Shown here piece by piece: positions 46,247 through 49,536 of a stretch of DNA of 64,000 nucleotides. Both the position numbers and the translations under genes were made by a program. Numbering within the stretch: position 1 is the stretch's first letter; each line of letters begins with the position of its first letter. Under the pieces are notes generated by a model. It saw nothing but the letters and a program-made list of their open reading frames with translations. It did no database searches and had not been told where the DNA came from. The stretch comes from a virus: the UHGV virus genome UHGV-0371537. The stretch is one strand, 5' to 3'.

Positions 46247-46289
46247 TTAATCTCTATTGAAGAGTTGTTACTAAATCATGAGGCTGGAA

Positions 46290-47483
46290 ATGAACGCCAA
46301 AACATTCAACATTCCGATCGACAATGAAGGGCTAGTGGTTGAGCGACTGAAAAAGCTCGAGCGCACTGCTGTCCGTCTGGGTGTACCATTCCCGACTGTG
46401 ACTTATGGTGAACCCTTCAAGACCCACACCCGTGACTTCACTGGTGAGATCCTCACTCACTGGTGGAAGCCCGTCACCCTCGAAGGTGAAGGCATTGACC
46501 GCCCGGTGTCATACGGTGGTTGGAAAATCATTGGTCAGTTCAATCACGAATACCCAAAGGTCATTCTGAACCGACTGTCCGACAATATCAATGCTGACTT
46601 CATCCGTCGCTTCGAGACAGAGAATGTCTCTTGGTGCCAGCATTGCAACCTGCTCATCAATCGCAAGAACACATATGTGATTGAAAACGAGGAAACGCAC
46701 ACTCAGATGCTGATCGGCAGCACCTGCATGCATCATTATGTGCCTCATCAGAAGTCCCTTGACGCGATCATGTCTTACTATCTGGGAATCCAGGAGTTCT
46801 TCATGCCGGATGAAGATGATCCAGAGGGCATCTATCGCGTTCGTAACGAACAATTCACAGATACCCACAATTACCTGCGTGCGTGCTTCCAGGTGATGCT
46901 GTCTGGCGTAGACATCAAGTCTGAACTATTTGACAAAGTCCTGGGCTATGTCCGGTCTTATCAGAAACCAAAAGCAGGTTCCGATGAAGAGCATTTCGTA
47001 TACAAGGCACACGAGTACCGTGAAGACGCCGAGTCAGAAATGTACCACATGAAGCTCTTCATCAGTGCGCTGTCTGAATCCAATGAATTCAACGTTCGCC
47101 TGAAACGCATGTGTGAACCGGGCTACCACCTGATCAAGGACGATAACACAGTCCGCTGGGGTGCCAAGAAGTATTACGATTACATCCATCGCCCTCGCGC
47201 CGACCGCAAGACAGAGAACAAATGGGTGGGCGAAGTCGGGGAGATGCTGGAAGTACAAGTCAGGTTCGACAAGCGCGTCTTCCTCTTCTCCAATGAATAC
47301 GGTGACAGCTACCTGTTTACTTTCAAAACAGTAGAAGGCAATACAATTACCTGGAAGACCTCTTGTATGGATACAGAGTTCTTGCAGGGCGATATGATCA
47401 TCCGTGGTCGTGTCAAAGAACTGACTGAGTACAACGGTGTTAAACAAACTCAGGTCACCCGAGCCAAATTGAGGAAATTATGA
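46290..47483 (+). CDS. hypothetical protein (Cys/His-rich centre)
   Basis: ATG 46290 (MNAKTF...); no confident family. Confidence 0.5.
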   Translation: MNAKTFNIPIDNEGLVVERLKKLERTAVRLGVPFPTVTYGEPFKTHTRDFTGEILTHWWKPVTLEGEGIDRPVSYGGWKIIGQFNHEYPKVILNRLSDNINADFIRRFETENVSWCQHCNLLINRKNTYVIENEETHTQMLIGSTCMHHYVPHQKSLDAIMSYYLGIQEFFMPDEDDPEGIYRVRNEQFTDTHNYLRACFQVMLSGVDIKSELFDKVLGYVRSYQKPKAGSDEEHFVYKAHEYREDAESEMYHMKLFISALSESNEFNVRLKRMCEPGYHLIKDDNTVRWGAKKYYDYIHRPRADRKTENKWVGEVGEMLEVQVRFDKRVFLFSNEYGDSYLFTFKTVEGNTITWKTSCMDTEFLQGDMIIRGRVKELTEYNGVKQTQVTRAKLRKL

Positions 47484-47593
47484 ATTTGATTGAGTTTGTT
47501 CTGAAGTCGTTCGCCTTTGGTCTGATAGCATGCGGAGTGATTACAGCTATGCTTGTCATCATAGCTCTGATCATCCCCTTTAAGAGGAAATAG
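47480..47593 (+). CDS. small hydrophobic peptide (37 aa), not in ORF track
   Basis: ATGA overlap with upstream stop; MNLIEFVLKSFAFGLIACGVITAMLVIIALIIPFKRK is a single TM helix. Confidence 0.3.
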   Translation: MNLIEFVLKSFAFGLIACGVITAMLVIIALIIPFKRK

Positions 47594-47595
47594 AG

Positions 47596-47757
47596 ATGAA
47601 ACGTGAAATCATGGATGTGTATGATCCAGGGTCTTGTTGTCCCGGTCATGACAAGTATCCATCCGATACTTACAAGAATCGACGTTCCAAAGCGCAACGC
47701 TCCAAGAGTATTAAGAAGGAGCATCGCCACGCTCGTCGTGTAAGCGTCTGGGGCTGA
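47596..47757 (+). CDS. small basic protein (53 aa), not in ORF track
   Basis: AAGAGGAAA SD; MKREIMDVYDPGSCCPGHDKY... with Arg/Lys-rich tail. Confidence 0.3.
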   Translation: MKREIMDVYDPGSCCPGHDKYPSDTYKNRRSKAQRSKSIKKEHRHARRVSVWG

Positions 47758-47794
47758 AAGCTGGCCTGAATACCATTACGTGGGAGGACTTTTG

Positions 47795-48007
47795 ATGGAA
47801 TGTTCATGCGGAGGGCAGGGCACAAGTGCTTACCTGCCATTTACCACCGTGAAGGAAGCCGAAGCCGCCGGGTTTGCCGTGGACAAGGCTCCCTGTGTAA
47901 TCGCCACGAAGGATTGCCCGTGCTGTAAGAGGCACTCTCAGGACGTCTTCTACGCCCCTGACGCGCGCCCAGCTACGGTCAACCTGCTTTCACTGATGAG
48001 GAAGTGA
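47795..48007 (+). CDS. small Cys-rich protein
   Basis: GGGAGGA SD; MECSCGG...CVIATKDCPCCKRH (putative metal-binding). Confidence 0.3.
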   Translation: MECSCGGQGTSAYLPFTTVKEAEAAGFAVDKAPCVIATKDCPCCKRHSQDVFYAPDARPATVNLLSLMRK

Positions 48008-48069
48008 AATGCGCAAGTATTTCAACTGGTTGTTGGCAAGATCCCGCAGCCAATAATCTATTGAAGTCC

Positions 48070-48102
48070 CCAGGGTTATAATAGCAACACATATAACCCT
48101 GG
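48070..48102 (+). repeat. palindrome CCAGGGTTATA-N11-TATAACCCTGG overlapping ligase SD
   Basis: 11-bp perfect inverted repeat; left arm contains TATAAT (48077-48082), right arm abuts SD GGAG (48101-48104). Confidence 0.5.
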
Positions 48103-48111
48103 AGACATTAC

Positions 48112-49536
48112 ATGATCCCTATCCTTGCAACAGTTCACCGACTTCGAGAAGCCAAAGGCAGCAATGCGAAGAAATCTGTGTTGACCGAAGCGTTCAAGAA
48201 TTGTCCAGACATGGCAGACTTCCTGCAATACGTCTATGACCCAATGACGTCGTTCTATCGGACCGAGTTGAAGCTCAGCGCGTATCCTCGCATGCTCGTC
48301 CGTGAGAAGACTGATGACATCAGCGAAGTCTATGACGTCCTCGATCAGATGGCGCAGCGTCTTGTCGGTGGTCAAAAGGCTGATGCCCTGCTGGCCTCTG
48401 TTGCTCTGAAGATGGACCCACAGTACCACGAACTCATTCAGATGATCCTGGACCGTGATATCAAGGCGGGTATTGCTGAGAAGGGCATCAACGCTGCATT
48501 CAACGCTGCTGGGGGTACAGGTCGCCTGATCAACATTCTTCCGTATCATCGTTATGACAACATGACGATTGACCTGCTGAAGAAGATGGACTTCAAGCGC
48601 GGTGTCTACAGCCAGCTGAAGTCAGACGGTATGTTCGCCAACATCATCTGTCGGTACAACAAAGAGCCTGAGATTCGCTCACGCTCCGGTTCCCTTATCG
48701 CAGGCGGTTCGGTCGACAATCTGTCACTGGTGTTCAAGGACATCATCTATGATACGGGGATTGGTGAGAGTGTATTCCATGGTGAACTGCTCGTTGTTGA
48801 CCTCAAGTCGAATTCTATCCTACCTCGCGCTGTCGGCAACGGTAAACTCAATAGCGTGATTCAGACTGGCGAACCCCTGGAAGATCGTTATCAGGTGATC
48901 TACCGGGTGTGGGATGTCGTACCTTATGAGAAGTGGTTCAACGCCGAGCGCGTGGGCACCCCGTATGAGCGCCGCTTCGATATCATCCAGCAACTGTTTT
49001 ACGAAGACGATGGTCTGGTGCAGGTGCAGGAAACTCGTGTTGTTCACTCATTTGCCGAAGCCGTCGACCACTTCAAAGACGCGCTGGCTCGTAAAGAAGA
49101 AGGCACGATCTGTAAGGCTGCTGACATGCCGTGGGAAGACGGGACTTCCTCGGAAGGTCTGAAGCTGAAGATGGAAGTGGAGTGCGACCTTGAAATTGTT
49201 GGTTTCAACGAGGCCGACAAGAAAGGCAAACACGCCAAGACCTTTGGCTCACTGCTTTGTAAGACTTCCGATGGCTTGCTTGTTGTTGGCGTCTCAGGGA
49301 TCTCAGATGAGCTGAGACTCCGTATGTGGGAGAACCAAGGCGACTACATTGGCAAGATCGCCGCAGTGCTCTCCAATGGCGTGCAGGATAAGACAGACGA
49401 TGCACTGAAGTCGCTGTTCCTGCCTCGCCTTGCTGAAATTCGTATTGACAAGAAAGTGGCCAACACGCTGGATGAAGTCTATGCGATTCAGAAAGCATAC
49501 ATCGAAAACATCGTATTCCTGTTGGAGTCTGCATAA
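48112..49536 (+). CDS. ATP-dependent DNA ligase (T4 gp30-like)
   Basis: Adenylation motif KSDG (QLKSDGMF), 474 aa. Confidence 0.8.
   Translation: MIPILATVHRLREAKGSNAKKSVLTEAFKNCPDMADFLQYVYDPMTSFYRTELKLSAYPRMLVREKTDDISEVYDVLDQMAQRLVGGQKADALLASVALKMDPQYHELIQMILDRDIKAGIAEKGINAAFNAAGGTGRLINILPYHRYDNMTIDLLKKMDFKRGVYSQLKSDGMFANIICRYNKEPEIRSRSGSLIAGGSVDNLSLVFKDIIYDTGIGESVFHGELLVVDLKSNSILPRAVGNGKLNSVIQTGEPLEDRYQVIYRVWDVVPYEKWFNAERVGTPYERRFDIIQQLFYEDDGLVQVQETRVVHSFAEAVDHFKDALARKEEGTICKAADMPWEDGTSSEGLKLKMEVECDLEIVGFNEADKKGKHAKTFGSLLCKTSDGLLVVGVSGISDELRLRMWENQGDYIGKIAAVLSNGVQDKTDDALKSLFLPRLAEIRIDKKVANTLDEVYAIQKAYIENIVFLLESA

What the first reader, a model, noticed from the sequence alone, without database searches (positions are those of the whole stretch)
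47480..48007. Three tiny ORFs (hydrophobic, basic, Cys-rich) packed between two large genes
Two are absent from the ORF track because they are under 60 aa. All three have their own ribosome-binding sites or translational coupling: a 37-aa single-TM peptide (ATGA overlap with the upstream stop), a 53-aa basic protein with CCPGH, and a 70-aa protein with CSCGG ... CPCCKRH. Small early phage proteins of this kind are often host-takeover or anti-defense effectors.
Basis: inference. Interest (0 to 1): 0.45.

Follow-up and report, generated by a model that had tools for sequence, protein, structure and literature searches.

The report
Three real small phage genes, one ligase-linked
The three tiny reading frames are genuine, conserved genes of an Ackermannviridae phage. 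One is a membrane peptide, one is a frameshift-shortened copy of a widely shared small basic protein, and one is a four-cysteine protein that is fused to the DNA ligase in a sister genus.

Summary
ORF1 (47480-47593), ORF2 (47596-47757) and ORF3 (47795-48007) exist as described, between a 401-aa gene and a T4-type DNA ligase in an Ackermannviridae replication module (about 90% nt identity to Agtrevirus-like phages). Each matches its own PHROG family of unknown function, and all three evolve under purifying selection (dN/dS 0.11, 0.05 and 0.17; ligase 0.07).

They are three unrelated genes, not one system.

- **ORF1** is a single-pass membrane peptide coupled to the upstream gene.
- **ORF2** is a 1-nt-deletion allele (53 aa instead of 66 aa) of a small basic CCPGHD protein. 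The gene is present or absent among close relatives. It also occurs in Suspvirus, T4-like and Pseudomonas phages and in lambdoid prophages. The deletion removes only the variable tail.
- **ORF3** has four invariant cysteines (CxC...CxxC). It forms the N-terminal roughly 70 aa of the 565-aa DNA ligase in Miltonvirus. It lies directly upstream of the ligase in Erwinia and Vibrio relatives. It therefore most likely works with the ligase, not against the host.

The "host-takeover or anti-defence" reading is unsupported for ORF3 and untested for ORF1 and ORF2. All three genes are already annotated as hypothetical proteins in relatives. Interest is modest.

The parts
46278..47483 (+). 401-aa conserved gene of unknown function (phrog_2319). 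It is the upstream neighbour, and its stop overlaps the ORF1 start.
   Evidence: It is syntenic in all Ackermannviridae loci examined and in Vibrio phage K356. In Salmonella phage maane it is replaced by a truncated HNH endonuclease.
47480..47593 (+). ORF1, a 37-aa single-pass membrane peptide with a C-terminal KRK. It is translationally coupled to the 401-aa gene through an ATGA overlap.
   Evidence: phrog_6569 matches at E 6e-27. dN/dS is 0.11 over 13 orthologs. Kyte-Doolittle 19-residue window means are 1.5-2.9.
47596..47757 (+). ORF2, a 53-aa basic protein (pI 10.0). It is a frameshift-truncated allele of the 60-66-aa CCPGHD family (phrog_5428) and keeps the whole conserved core, residues 1-49.
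   Evidence: phrog_5428 matches residues 1-49 of a 64-position profile at E 4e-30. Family alignment A3 shows the conserved core and variable tail. dN/dS is 0.05.
47741..47742 (+). Site of the 1-nt deletion in ORF2. Relatives read GTC AAG; the window reads GT- AAG.
   Evidence: DNA alignments.
47742..47795 (+). Former C-terminal reading frame of ORF2 (KRLGLKAGLNTITWEDF*), now out of frame. Its TGA overlaps the ORF3 ATG (TGATG).
   Evidence: EspM4VN (L010) and L020 read KRLGLKADLNTIT[RQ]EDF* here.
47795..48007 (+). ORF3, a 70-aa protein with four invariant cysteines (CxC...CxxC). It is homologous to the N-terminal domain of the Miltonvirus DNA ligase.
   Evidence: phrog_4789 matches at 1e-44, with a weak hit to positions 1-67 of the ligase family phrog_114. 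tblastn hits Serratia phages Kevin and 2050H1 inside the ligase CDS. Invariant residues are C3, C5, C41 and C44. dN/dS is 0.17. The AF2 model has pLDDT 75.6.
48009..48056 (+). 15-aa stub ORF (MRKYFNWLLARSRSQ*). It is the scar left by deletion of the accessory gene block that separates ORF3 from the ligase in SKML-39, CBA120 and others.
   Evidence: The 5' end matches the start of SKML-39 gp127 and CBA120 orf057. The 3' end matches the end of the last inserted gene in SKML-39. Yersinia phage CAU_YEP3 has the same junction.
48058..48104 (+). Conserved element upstream of the ligase: CTATTGAAGTC, then an 11-bp inverted repeat (48070-48080 and 48092-48102) that contains TATAAT and overlaps the ligase Shine-Dalgarno GGAG (48101-48104).
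48112..49536 (+). T4 gp30-type ATP-dependent DNA ligase (474 aa), the inferred partner of ORF3.
   Evidence: It aligns end to end with residues 87-565 of the Miltonvirus ligase.

Best explanation
The interval holds three unrelated, genuine small protein-coding genes in the DNA-replication module of an Ackermannviridae phage.

**ORF1.** It encodes a conserved single-pass membrane peptide. It is translated by coupling to the upstream 401-aa gene (shown). Its role is unknown.

**ORF2.** It is an accessory gene that spreads horizontally. It encodes a small arginine- and lysine-rich Cys/His protein, the CCPGHD...KKEHRH family. Because of its charge and conserved Cys/His residues, I infer that it binds nucleic acid, possibly with a metal. 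In this genome a 1-nt deletion replaces the variable 17-aa tail with 4 residues and uncouples its stop from the ORF3 start. The conserved core is intact (shown).

**ORF3.** It is a small protein with a four-cysteine signature (CxC...CxxC), probably zinc-binding and zinc-ribbon-like. I infer that it acts as a detachable accessory module of the phage's T4-type DNA ligase. It would bind the ligase and contribute DNA or nick binding, or partner recruitment. In Miltonvirus the same module has become the covalent N-terminus of the ligase through loss of the stop codon and read-through of the short intergenic spacer. The fusion is shown; its direction is inferred.
For: **The genes are real.** Each matches a PHROG family. 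There are about 270-285 homologous phage records. dN/dS is 0.05-0.17, comparable to the ligase.

**ORF2.**
- The deletion and the intact old frame are seen directly.
- The core is conserved and the tail is variable.
- The gene is present or absent within both Agtrevirus-like phages and Kuttervirus.
- Homologs lie immediately after the ligase in Suspvirus and after the DNA polymerase in Pseudomonas phage tf. Others occur in Tegunavirus and Plaisancevirus, and after Ead/Ea22 in lambdoid prophages.

**ORF3.**
- Seven Miltonvirus records contain one uninterrupted match spanning the ORF3-like domain and the ligase N-terminus; in the two records read in full (Kevin, 2050H1) this is the start of a continuous 565-aa ligase ORF.
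- In that fusion the domain is under purifying selection. dN/dS is 0.12 for the domain, 0.72 for the linker (only 7 substitutions) and 0.09 for the ligase body.
- The ORF3 homolog lies 40 nt upstream of the ligase in Erwinia phage Bue1 and in metagenomic locus L018.
- A 99-aa QCGCGG..VPCTV..CKACGR protein ends 2 nt before the ligase in Vibrio phage K356, whose ligase is 38% identical. hhalign gives probability 89% and E 2e-6.
- In the Serratia, Erwinia and Vibrio lineages accessory genes separate ORF3 from the 401-aa gene, yet ORF3 stays next to the ligase.
- The Miltonvirus linker DNA resembles the Bue1 and L018 spacer, sharing TTCAAT, a GGT(T)AAAAT(A)GG motif and AACGATG (by eye; not tested statistically).
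- C3, C5, C41 and C44 are invariant across 14 divergent members.
- The top fold and sequence hits, all non-significant, are zinc ribbons such as NrdR, TFIIS and RPB9.
Against: **No direct evidence.** There is no evidence of a physical ORF3-ligase interaction or of zinc binding.

**Adjacency is not independent.** All these phages share one syntenic module, so neighbouring position counts for less than it seems. The single fusion clade is the only strong link.

**Alternative linkage.** In Kuttervirus, Taipeivirus, SKML-39 and locus L014, 1-7 genes separate ORF3 from the ligase. There ORF3 is tightly coupled to the ORF1/401-aa side instead.

**ORF3 is not required by this ligase type.** T4-type ligases in Nickievirus, Plateaulakevirus and Certrevirus have no ORF3-like neighbour. 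The 474-aa ligase aligns over its full length with T4-like gp30 ligases, which lack this domain.

**Structure is weak.**
- The ORF2 model is poor, with pLDDT 58.7. There are no hits in PDB sequences or NCBIfam, and only sub-threshold Pfam hits in other family members.
- The nucleic-acid-binding idea for ORF2 therefore rests on composition alone.

**Frameshift caveat.** The ORF2 deletion could be a sequencing error.
Confidence: 0.6

Rival explanations
1. The three peptides are early host-takeover or anti-defence effectors that act on host proteins or immune systems.
For: - All three are small and have no known function.
- ORF2 is patchily distributed among close relatives.
- ORF2 has spread to unrelated lytic and temperate phages, typically abutting a gene boundary in early or accessory regions. 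In lambdoid prophages it lies in the ea region, near anti-RecBCD (Abc2), Ral and Kil genes.
- ORF1 is a membrane peptide, a class that includes superinfection-exclusion factors (own knowledge).
Against: - No similarity to any characterised effector was found.
- ORF3 and ORF1 are near-universal core genes of enterobacterial Ackermannviridae, not variable cargo.
- ORF3 is fused to the ligase in one genus.
- The genes lie inside the replication operon.
Confidence: 0.2
2. ORF3 is a fragment of an ancestrally longer ligase gene. Insertion of mobile DNA, such as homing-endonuclease cassettes, split the gene, as in the "genes in pieces" of T4-like phages. The two pieces reassemble after translation.
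For: - A contiguous version exists in Miltonvirus.
- The ORF3-ligase gap is an insertion and deletion hotspot, holding 0-7 extra genes.
- Homing endonucleases are common in this neighbourhood.
Against: - The contiguous form is confined to one genus. The split form occurs in every other lineage, including the most divergent one in Vibrio.
- The Miltonvirus linker appears to correspond to a short intergenic spacer (similarity judged by eye) and evolves without clear constraint (dN/dS 0.72). That fits stop-codon loss better than ancestral coding sequence.
- None of the intervening genes annotated in the loci examined is a homing endonuclease, and the window itself has only a 104-nt spacer.
- T4-type ligases are complete without this domain.
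Confidence: 0.1
3. ORF3 works with the upstream 401-aa protein and ORF1, for example as a zinc-binding subunit of that unknown replication factor. The Miltonvirus fusion to the ligase is then a tolerated accident.
For: - In Aglimvirinae, Kuttervirus, Taipeivirus and locus L014, ORF3 directly follows the 401-aa gene or ORF1 with overlapping or abutting start and stop codons. Up to 7 genes separate it from the ligase.
- The ligase has its own conserved upstream element.
Against: - In Miltonvirus, Nezavisimistyvirus and Vibrio K356, ORF3 is separated from the 401-aa gene by 2-6 genes but remains fused or adjacent to the ligase.
- Phage maane lacks the 401-aa gene yet keeps ORF1 and ORF3.
- The fused domain is still under purifying selection.
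Confidence: 0.15
4. ORF2 in this genome is not a functional 53-aa protein. The 1-nt deletion is either a sequencing or assembly error, so the true product is 66 aa, or a recent inactivating mutation in a dispensable gene.
For: - All ten related copies recovered are full length, and no phage record listed matches the window's 53-aa product exactly.
- The downstream old frame is completely intact and nearly identical to EspM4VN and L020. The change is therefore very recent or artefactual.
- The gene is absent from many close relatives, so it is dispensable.
Against: - The deletion is not in a homopolymer run (GTCAAG to GTAAG).
- It falls exactly at the boundary between the conserved core (1-49) and the variable tail, so the truncated protein could remain active.
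Confidence: 0.35

Closest known systems
N-terminal extension of the Miltonvirus DNA ligase (Serratia phages phiMAM1, 2050H1, Kevin, 3M, KNP4; 565 aa)
   Same: It is homologous to ORF3 over about 69 residues (45-48% identity, tblastn E about 1e-14). It has the same CxC...PC...CPxC(K/R)RH pattern. It is followed by a ligase body that is 52-53% identical to the window's ligase.
   Different: There it is covalently joined to the ligase by a 16-17-aa linker. In the window it is a separate 70-aa polypeptide, followed by a 104-nt spacer that carries its own regulatory element.
Zinc fingers that assist other DNA ligases: the Cys4 finger of bacterial NAD+-dependent LigA and the N-terminal PARP-like finger of eukaryotic DNA ligase III (own knowledge)
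   Same: This is an analogy only. In each case a small Cys-rich module attached to a ligase helps nick or DNA recognition.
   Different: No sequence or fold similarity was detected. The ligase class and module position differ. Here the module is usually a separate protein.
Zinc ribbons such as the NrdR N-terminus and the TFIIS/RPB9 C-terminal domain
   Same: Both have two cysteine knuckles flanking beta-strands. The second knuckle, CPxC, is followed by a beta-hairpin. These are the top-ranked hits, though none is significant.
   Different: The first knuckle is CxC, not CxxC. An alpha-helix is inserted between the knuckles. E-values are 0.4-1, so membership is not established.
Phage genes in pieces, such as T4 topoisomerase genes 39 and 60 and the Aeromonas phage Aeh1 nrdA split by mobE (own knowledge; reviewed in PMC2988022, found but not read)
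   Same: One protein in some phages corresponds to two adjacent genes in others, in a region rich in mobile elements.
   Different: Here the split state appears ancestral and the joined state derived. The small piece is an extra domain, not part of the catalytic core.
Accessory ea/nin-type small genes of lambdoid phages, as the comparison for ORF2
   Same: ORF2 homologs sit in the ea region of lambdoid prophages, directly after Ead/Ea22. They are small, dispensable and horizontally exchanged.
   Different: No characterised member exists. In the window the gene lies in a lytic phage's replication operon.

Membership tests
phrog_6569 (ORF1) | Full-length match to the family HMM | tested here: met
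   E 6.2e-27, residues 1-37 against profile positions 1-37 of 38.
phrog_5428 (ORF2, CCPGHD family) | Match to the conserved core (MKREI..PG.CCPGHD.YP..Y..RRS...R....KEHRH.RR) | tested here: met
   E 4.4e-30 over residues 1-49. All invariant columns are present.
phrog_5428 (ORF2, CCPGHD family) | Full length of 60-66 aa, with the C-terminal tail and, in Ackermannviridae, a stop that overlaps the next gene's start | tested here: not met
   A 1-nt deletion at 47741/47742 gives 53 aa, and the stop lies 37 nt before the ORF3 ATG.
phrog_4789 (ORF3) | Full-length match to the family HMM | tested here: met
   E 1e-44, residues 1-70 against profile positions 1-70 of 70.
ATP-dependent DNA ligase (some records label ORF3 homologs "DNA ligase") | Nucleotidyltransferase and OB domains (Pfam DNA_ligase_A_M and related families) | tested here: not met
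   ORF3 has no Pfam hit. It matches only positions 1-67 of the 634-position ligase family phrog_114. ORF3 is not itself a ligase.
Ligase N-terminal accessory domain (Miltonvirus type) | Homology to the segment upstream of the ligase DNA-binding domain, within a continuous ligase ORF | tested here: met
Zinc ribbon | Two conserved cysteine pairs | tested here: met
   C3, C5, C41 and C44 are invariant in 14 divergent sequences. The first pair is CxC, not CxxC.
Zinc ribbon | Significant sequence or fold similarity to established zinc ribbons | tested here: inconclusive
Zinc ribbon | Binds one zinc ion | not testable with these tools
   This needs metal analysis of purified protein.
Genes in pieces created by homing-endonuclease insertion | A mobile endonuclease gene lies between the two pieces | tested here: not met
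   The window has only a 104-nt spacer with a deletion scar. In the relatives examined, none of the annotated intervening genes is a homing endonuclease.
Genes in pieces created by homing-endonuclease insertion | The contiguous form is ancestral | tested here: not met
   The fusion occurs only in Miltonvirus. Its linker resembles the intergenic spacer of split relatives and shows relaxed constraint. No formal phylogeny was made.
Known anti-defence or host-takeover effectors | Similarity to a characterised effector family | tested here: not met
   No annotated family was found in PHROGs, Pfam or NCBIfam for any of the three ORFs. There is no dedicated anti-defence library among the tools.

The most novel reading that the evidence does not exclude
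Ackermannviridae phages use a two-component DNA ligase. A free zinc-ribbon-like subunit of about 70 aa (ORF3) docks on the T4-type ligase. It is needed for efficient nick recognition or replisome recruitment, possibly on the hypermodified thymidine-containing DNA of this family. Miltonvirus shows the covalently fused version. Separately, the CCPGHD protein (ORF2) could be a new, widely mobile small nucleic-acid-binding regulator or anti-defence factor shared by lytic and temperate phages.
Probability: 0.3. Interest if true: 0.55.

Novelty: new member of a known kind. Interest (0 to 1): 0.33.

Why it matters
**Annotation.** The result corrects labels that have spread across Ackermannviridae records.
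- ORF1 homologs are called "HNH homing endonuclease".
- ORF3 homologs are called "DNA ligase".

**Experiment.** It gives a concrete hypothesis for one piece of phage dark matter. The four-cysteine protein may be an accessory subunit of a T4-type DNA ligase, which would interest work on ligase enzymology and ligase engineering. It also flags the CCPGHD protein as an uncharacterised gene that moves between very different phages.

**Limits.** None of this overturns current understanding. No activity has been shown.

Tried and rejected
**ORF3 family and structure**
- The word-index homology search found only 13 close clusters.
- The exhaustive profile search found 9 proteins. All real ones were stand-alone 70-79-aa proteins, and two hits (P0053, P0054) were spurious repeat proteins.
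- The word-index search with the Miltonvirus junction segment returned nothing.
- The PDB sequence profile search gave only non-significant hits.

**ORF2**
- The structure model was poor, with pLDDT 58.7.
- There was no PDB hit.
- The only Pfam hits were a sub-threshold partial match to Zn_ribbon_InsA. They appeared in 2 of 34 family members, both with an extra Cys that the window copy lacks. I judged them unreliable.
- A full-text literature search for the CCPGHD motif found nothing.

**Ideas rejected**
- Read-through or frameshifting that joins ORF3 to the ligase. The two are in frame in RPN242 and CAU_YEP3 but not in the window, where the start-to-start offset is 317 nt. Spacer length also varies.
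- The element upstream of the ligase as a recurring phage promoter. It is unique in the 64-kb window.
- ORF3-like genes as a general companion of T4-type ligases. None was found in Nickievirus, Plateaulakevirus or Certrevirus.

**Literature**
- No transcriptomic or proteomic data on these genes was found.
- The one relevant paper, PMC10892097, only places them in a predicted operon.
Full report
**What is there.** The + strand of 47480-48007 carries three short ORFs exactly as described.
- ORF1 is 47480-47593 (37 aa). Its ATG overlaps the TGA of the preceding 401-aa gene.
- ORF2 is 47596-47757 (53 aa, pI 10.0).
- ORF3 is 47795-48007 (70 aa, six Cys).

Each has a Shine-Dalgarno-like purine run 5-8 nt upstream. 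The flanking genes are a conserved 401-aa protein of unknown function (46278-47483, phrog_2319) and a T4 gp30-type ATP-dependent DNA ligase (48112-49536).

**Where the window comes from.** The region is about 90-92% identical in DNA to Agtrevirus-like Ackermannviridae such as SKML-39, MK-13, EspM4VN and fGh-Ecl02. It is about 80% identical to Kuttervirus. The gene order matches the replication module of that family: primase-helicase, small genes, 401-aa gene, ORF1, optionally ORF2, ORF3, 0-7 variable genes, ligase, helicase loader.

**Are they genes?** Yes.
- Each ORF matches its own PHROG family of unknown function. The E-values are 6e-27, 4e-30 and 1e-44.
- Homologs are annotated as hypothetical proteins in most of the related genome records examined.
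- Pairwise Nei-Gojobori dN/dS over orthologs is 0.11 for ORF1, 0.05 for ORF2 and 0.17 for ORF3. The ligase gives 0.07 and the 401-aa gene 0.065.

No expression data were found in the literature.

**ORF1.** It is a hydrophobic single-pass peptide ending in KRK. Kyte-Doolittle 19-residue window means reach 2.9. It is nearly invariant in Aglimvirinae and Kuttervirus and more divergent in Taipeivirus. Miltonvirus has a similar-sized hydrophobic peptide in the same position, but without detectable sequence similarity.

It always begins at or inside the stop of the 401-aa gene. In Salmonella phage maane the 401-aa gene is replaced by a truncated HNH endonuclease that runs in frame into ORF1. The 401-aa gene is therefore dispensable, and ORF1 is retained without it. 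That chimaera may explain why 38-aa ORF1 homologs are mislabelled "HNH homing endonuclease" in some records. The function of ORF1 is unknown.

**ORF2.**
- *Frameshift.* The window copy is not typical of its family. Relatives encode 60-66 aa. The window lacks one base between 47741 and 47742 (GTCAAG in relatives, GTAAG here). The last 17 residues are replaced by SVWG and a stop.
- *Old frame.* The old frame is still intact at 47742-47795 (KRLGLKAGLNTITWEDF*). It is almost identical to EspM4VN and L020, and it ends in TGATG overlapping the ORF3 start. The change is therefore very recent or a sequencing error.
- *What is lost.* The deletion falls at the boundary between a strongly conserved core (residues 1-49, MKREI..PG.CCPGHD.YP..Y.NRRS...R....KKEHRH.RR) and a variable tail. 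The truncated product could still be active.
- *Accessory and mobile.* The gene is present in some and absent from other Agtrevirus-like and Kuttervirus genomes. When it is absent, ORF1 abuts ORF3 directly.
- *Distribution.* Homologs at 55-75% identity occur directly after the ligase in Suspvirus, after the DNA polymerase in Pseudomonas phage tf, between tRNA genes in phiPMW, in T4-like Yersinia and Morganella phages, and after Ead/Ea22 in the ea region of lambdoid prophages.
- *No structural clue.* The AF2 model has pLDDT 58.7. PDB sequences and NCBIfam give nothing, and Pfam gives only sub-threshold hits in other family members.

From its charge and conserved Cys/His residues I infer a small nucleic-acid-binding, perhaps metal-binding, protein. 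This is the weakest part of the account. A host-directed or anti-defence role remains possible.

**ORF3.** This is the most informative of the three.

*Cysteine signature.* Across 14 divergent family members the invariant residues are M1, C3, C5, G6, P33, C41, C44 and Y53. This gives a CxC...CxxC four-cysteine signature. The AF2 model (pLDDT 75.6) has three strands and a short helix. No solved structure matches significantly. The best-ranked, non-significant hits are zinc ribbons such as RPB9, NrdR and TFIIS.

*Link to the ligase.*
- ORF3 hits the first 67 positions of the DNA-ligase family phrog_114.
- In the Miltonvirus genomes (phiMAM1, 2050H1, 3M, KNP4, Kevin) the homologous segment is the N-terminus of the ligase ORF. 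In the two read in full, that ORF is 565 aa. The segment is followed by a 16-17-aa linker and a ligase body that aligns end to end with the window's 474-aa ligase.
- Between two Miltonvirus genomes the domain has dN/dS 0.12, the linker 0.72 (only 7 substitutions) and the ligase body 0.09.
- In Erwinia phage Bue1 and metagenomic locus L018 the ORF3 homolog ends 40 nt before the ligase.
- In Vibrio phage K356, whose ligase is only 38% identical, a 99-aa protein with the same motif ends 2 nt before the ligase. hhalign gives probability 89% and E 2e-6.
- In those three lineages other genes separate ORF3 from the 401-aa gene, yet ORF3 stays with the ligase.

*Direction of the fusion.* The Miltonvirus linker DNA resembles the Bue1 and L018 intergenic spacer (TTCAAT...GGT(T)AAAAT(A)GG...AACGATG). 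This fits a fusion created by stop-codon loss better than an ancestral long gene (judged by eye).

*Inference.* By the usual logic of gene fusions, ORF3 most likely acts together with the ligase. It may serve as a DNA- or nick-binding module or as a partner-recruiting module.

*Caveats.*
- All these phages share one syntenic module, so adjacency is weak evidence.
- In Kuttervirus, Taipeivirus, SKML-39 and L014, 1-7 genes separate ORF3 from the ligase, and ORF3 is coupled to the upstream side instead.
- T4-type ligases of other phage groups have no such neighbour.

**The spacer between ORF3 and the ligase (48008-48111).**
- *Deletion scar.* A 15-aa stub ORF (48009-48056) joins the first codons of the gene that follows ORF3 in SKML-39 and CBA120 to the last codons of the block that precedes the ligase there. 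Yersinia phage CAU_YEP3 has the same junction. The window's compact layout, with ORF3 next to the ligase, is therefore derived.
- *Conserved element.* At 48058-48104 lies CTATTGAAGTC followed by an 11-bp inverted repeat. The repeat contains TATAAT, and its 3' arm overlaps the ligase Shine-Dalgarno sequence.
  - The element is unique in the window.
  - It precedes the ligase in Aglimvirinae, Kuttervirus and Taipeivirus, with an A-T to G-C exchange at one stem position.
  - The segment folds much better than shuffled controls, with z = -5.7.
  - The ligase therefore probably has its own expression signal, separate from ORF3.

**Comparison with the known, and verdict.** All three ORFs belong to existing families of hypothetical phage proteins, so none is a new kind of object. 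ORF3 is not a ligase, because it has no catalytic domains. It is not shown to be a zinc ribbon. The "genes in pieces through homing-endonuclease insertion" model fails two of its defining features.

Three points are new:
- the ligase link of ORF3, with the likely direction of the fusion;
- the frameshift and mobility of ORF2;
- several annotation errors in public records.

Interest is modest at 0.33. The most novel reading still open is a two-subunit phage DNA ligase, with probability about 0.3.

Noticed in passing
window 48009-48056: A 15-aa stub ORF (MRKYFNWLLARSRSQ*) is a deletion scar. It joins the start of the SKML-39 gp127 / CBA120 orf057 homolog to the end of the last gene of a roughly 2.1-kb accessory block that separates ORF3 from the ligase in relatives. 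Yersinia phage CAU_YEP3 has the same junction.
   Followed up: partly
window 48058-48104: A conserved element lies upstream of the ligase. It consists of CTATTGAAGTC followed by an 11-bp inverted repeat (48070-48080 and 48092-48102). The repeat contains TATAAT and overlaps the ligase Shine-Dalgarno sequence. The element is unique in the window. It is conserved across three Ackermannviridae groups, with one compensatory stem change. RNA folding of 48000-48125 gives z = -5.7. It could be a promoter, a translational operator or a processing site.
   Followed up: partly
window 46278-47483; L049 2627-3001 (Salmonella phage maane): The conserved 401-aa gene has unknown function and a CxxC...C motif. 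In phage maane it is replaced by a truncated HNH endonuclease fused in frame to ORF1, so it is dispensable there. This chimaera may explain why 38-aa ORF1 homologs are labelled "HNH homing endonuclease" in records such as Guerrero.
   Followed up: partly
L013 2898-3110 and 3515-3853; L049 3212-3550: In several Kuttervirus records the 70-aa ORF3 homolog and a 113-aa protein between ORF3 and the ligase are both annotated "DNA ligase". The ORF3 homolog has no ligase catalytic domains; the 113-aa protein was not analysed.
   Followed up: no
L005 2501-4198 (Serratia phage Kevin), linker near 2700-2770: The linker of the fused Miltonvirus ligase contains a GGTTAAAATGG motif resembling one in the intergenic spacer of split relatives. 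An in-frame ATG lies at the position where the stand-alone ligases start. A short ligase form might also be made.
   Followed up: no
L004 2501-2689 (Escherichia phage SUSP2): An unannotated 62-aa ORF2 homolog starts at the last base of the annotated DNA ligase CDS. The same position is hit in several Suspvirus and Felixounavirus records.
   Followed up: partly
window 47455-47730, minus strand: A 91-aa ORF lies antisense to ORF1 and ORF2. The + frames are under purifying selection and all neighbouring genes are on the + strand, so it is probably not a gene.
   Followed up: no
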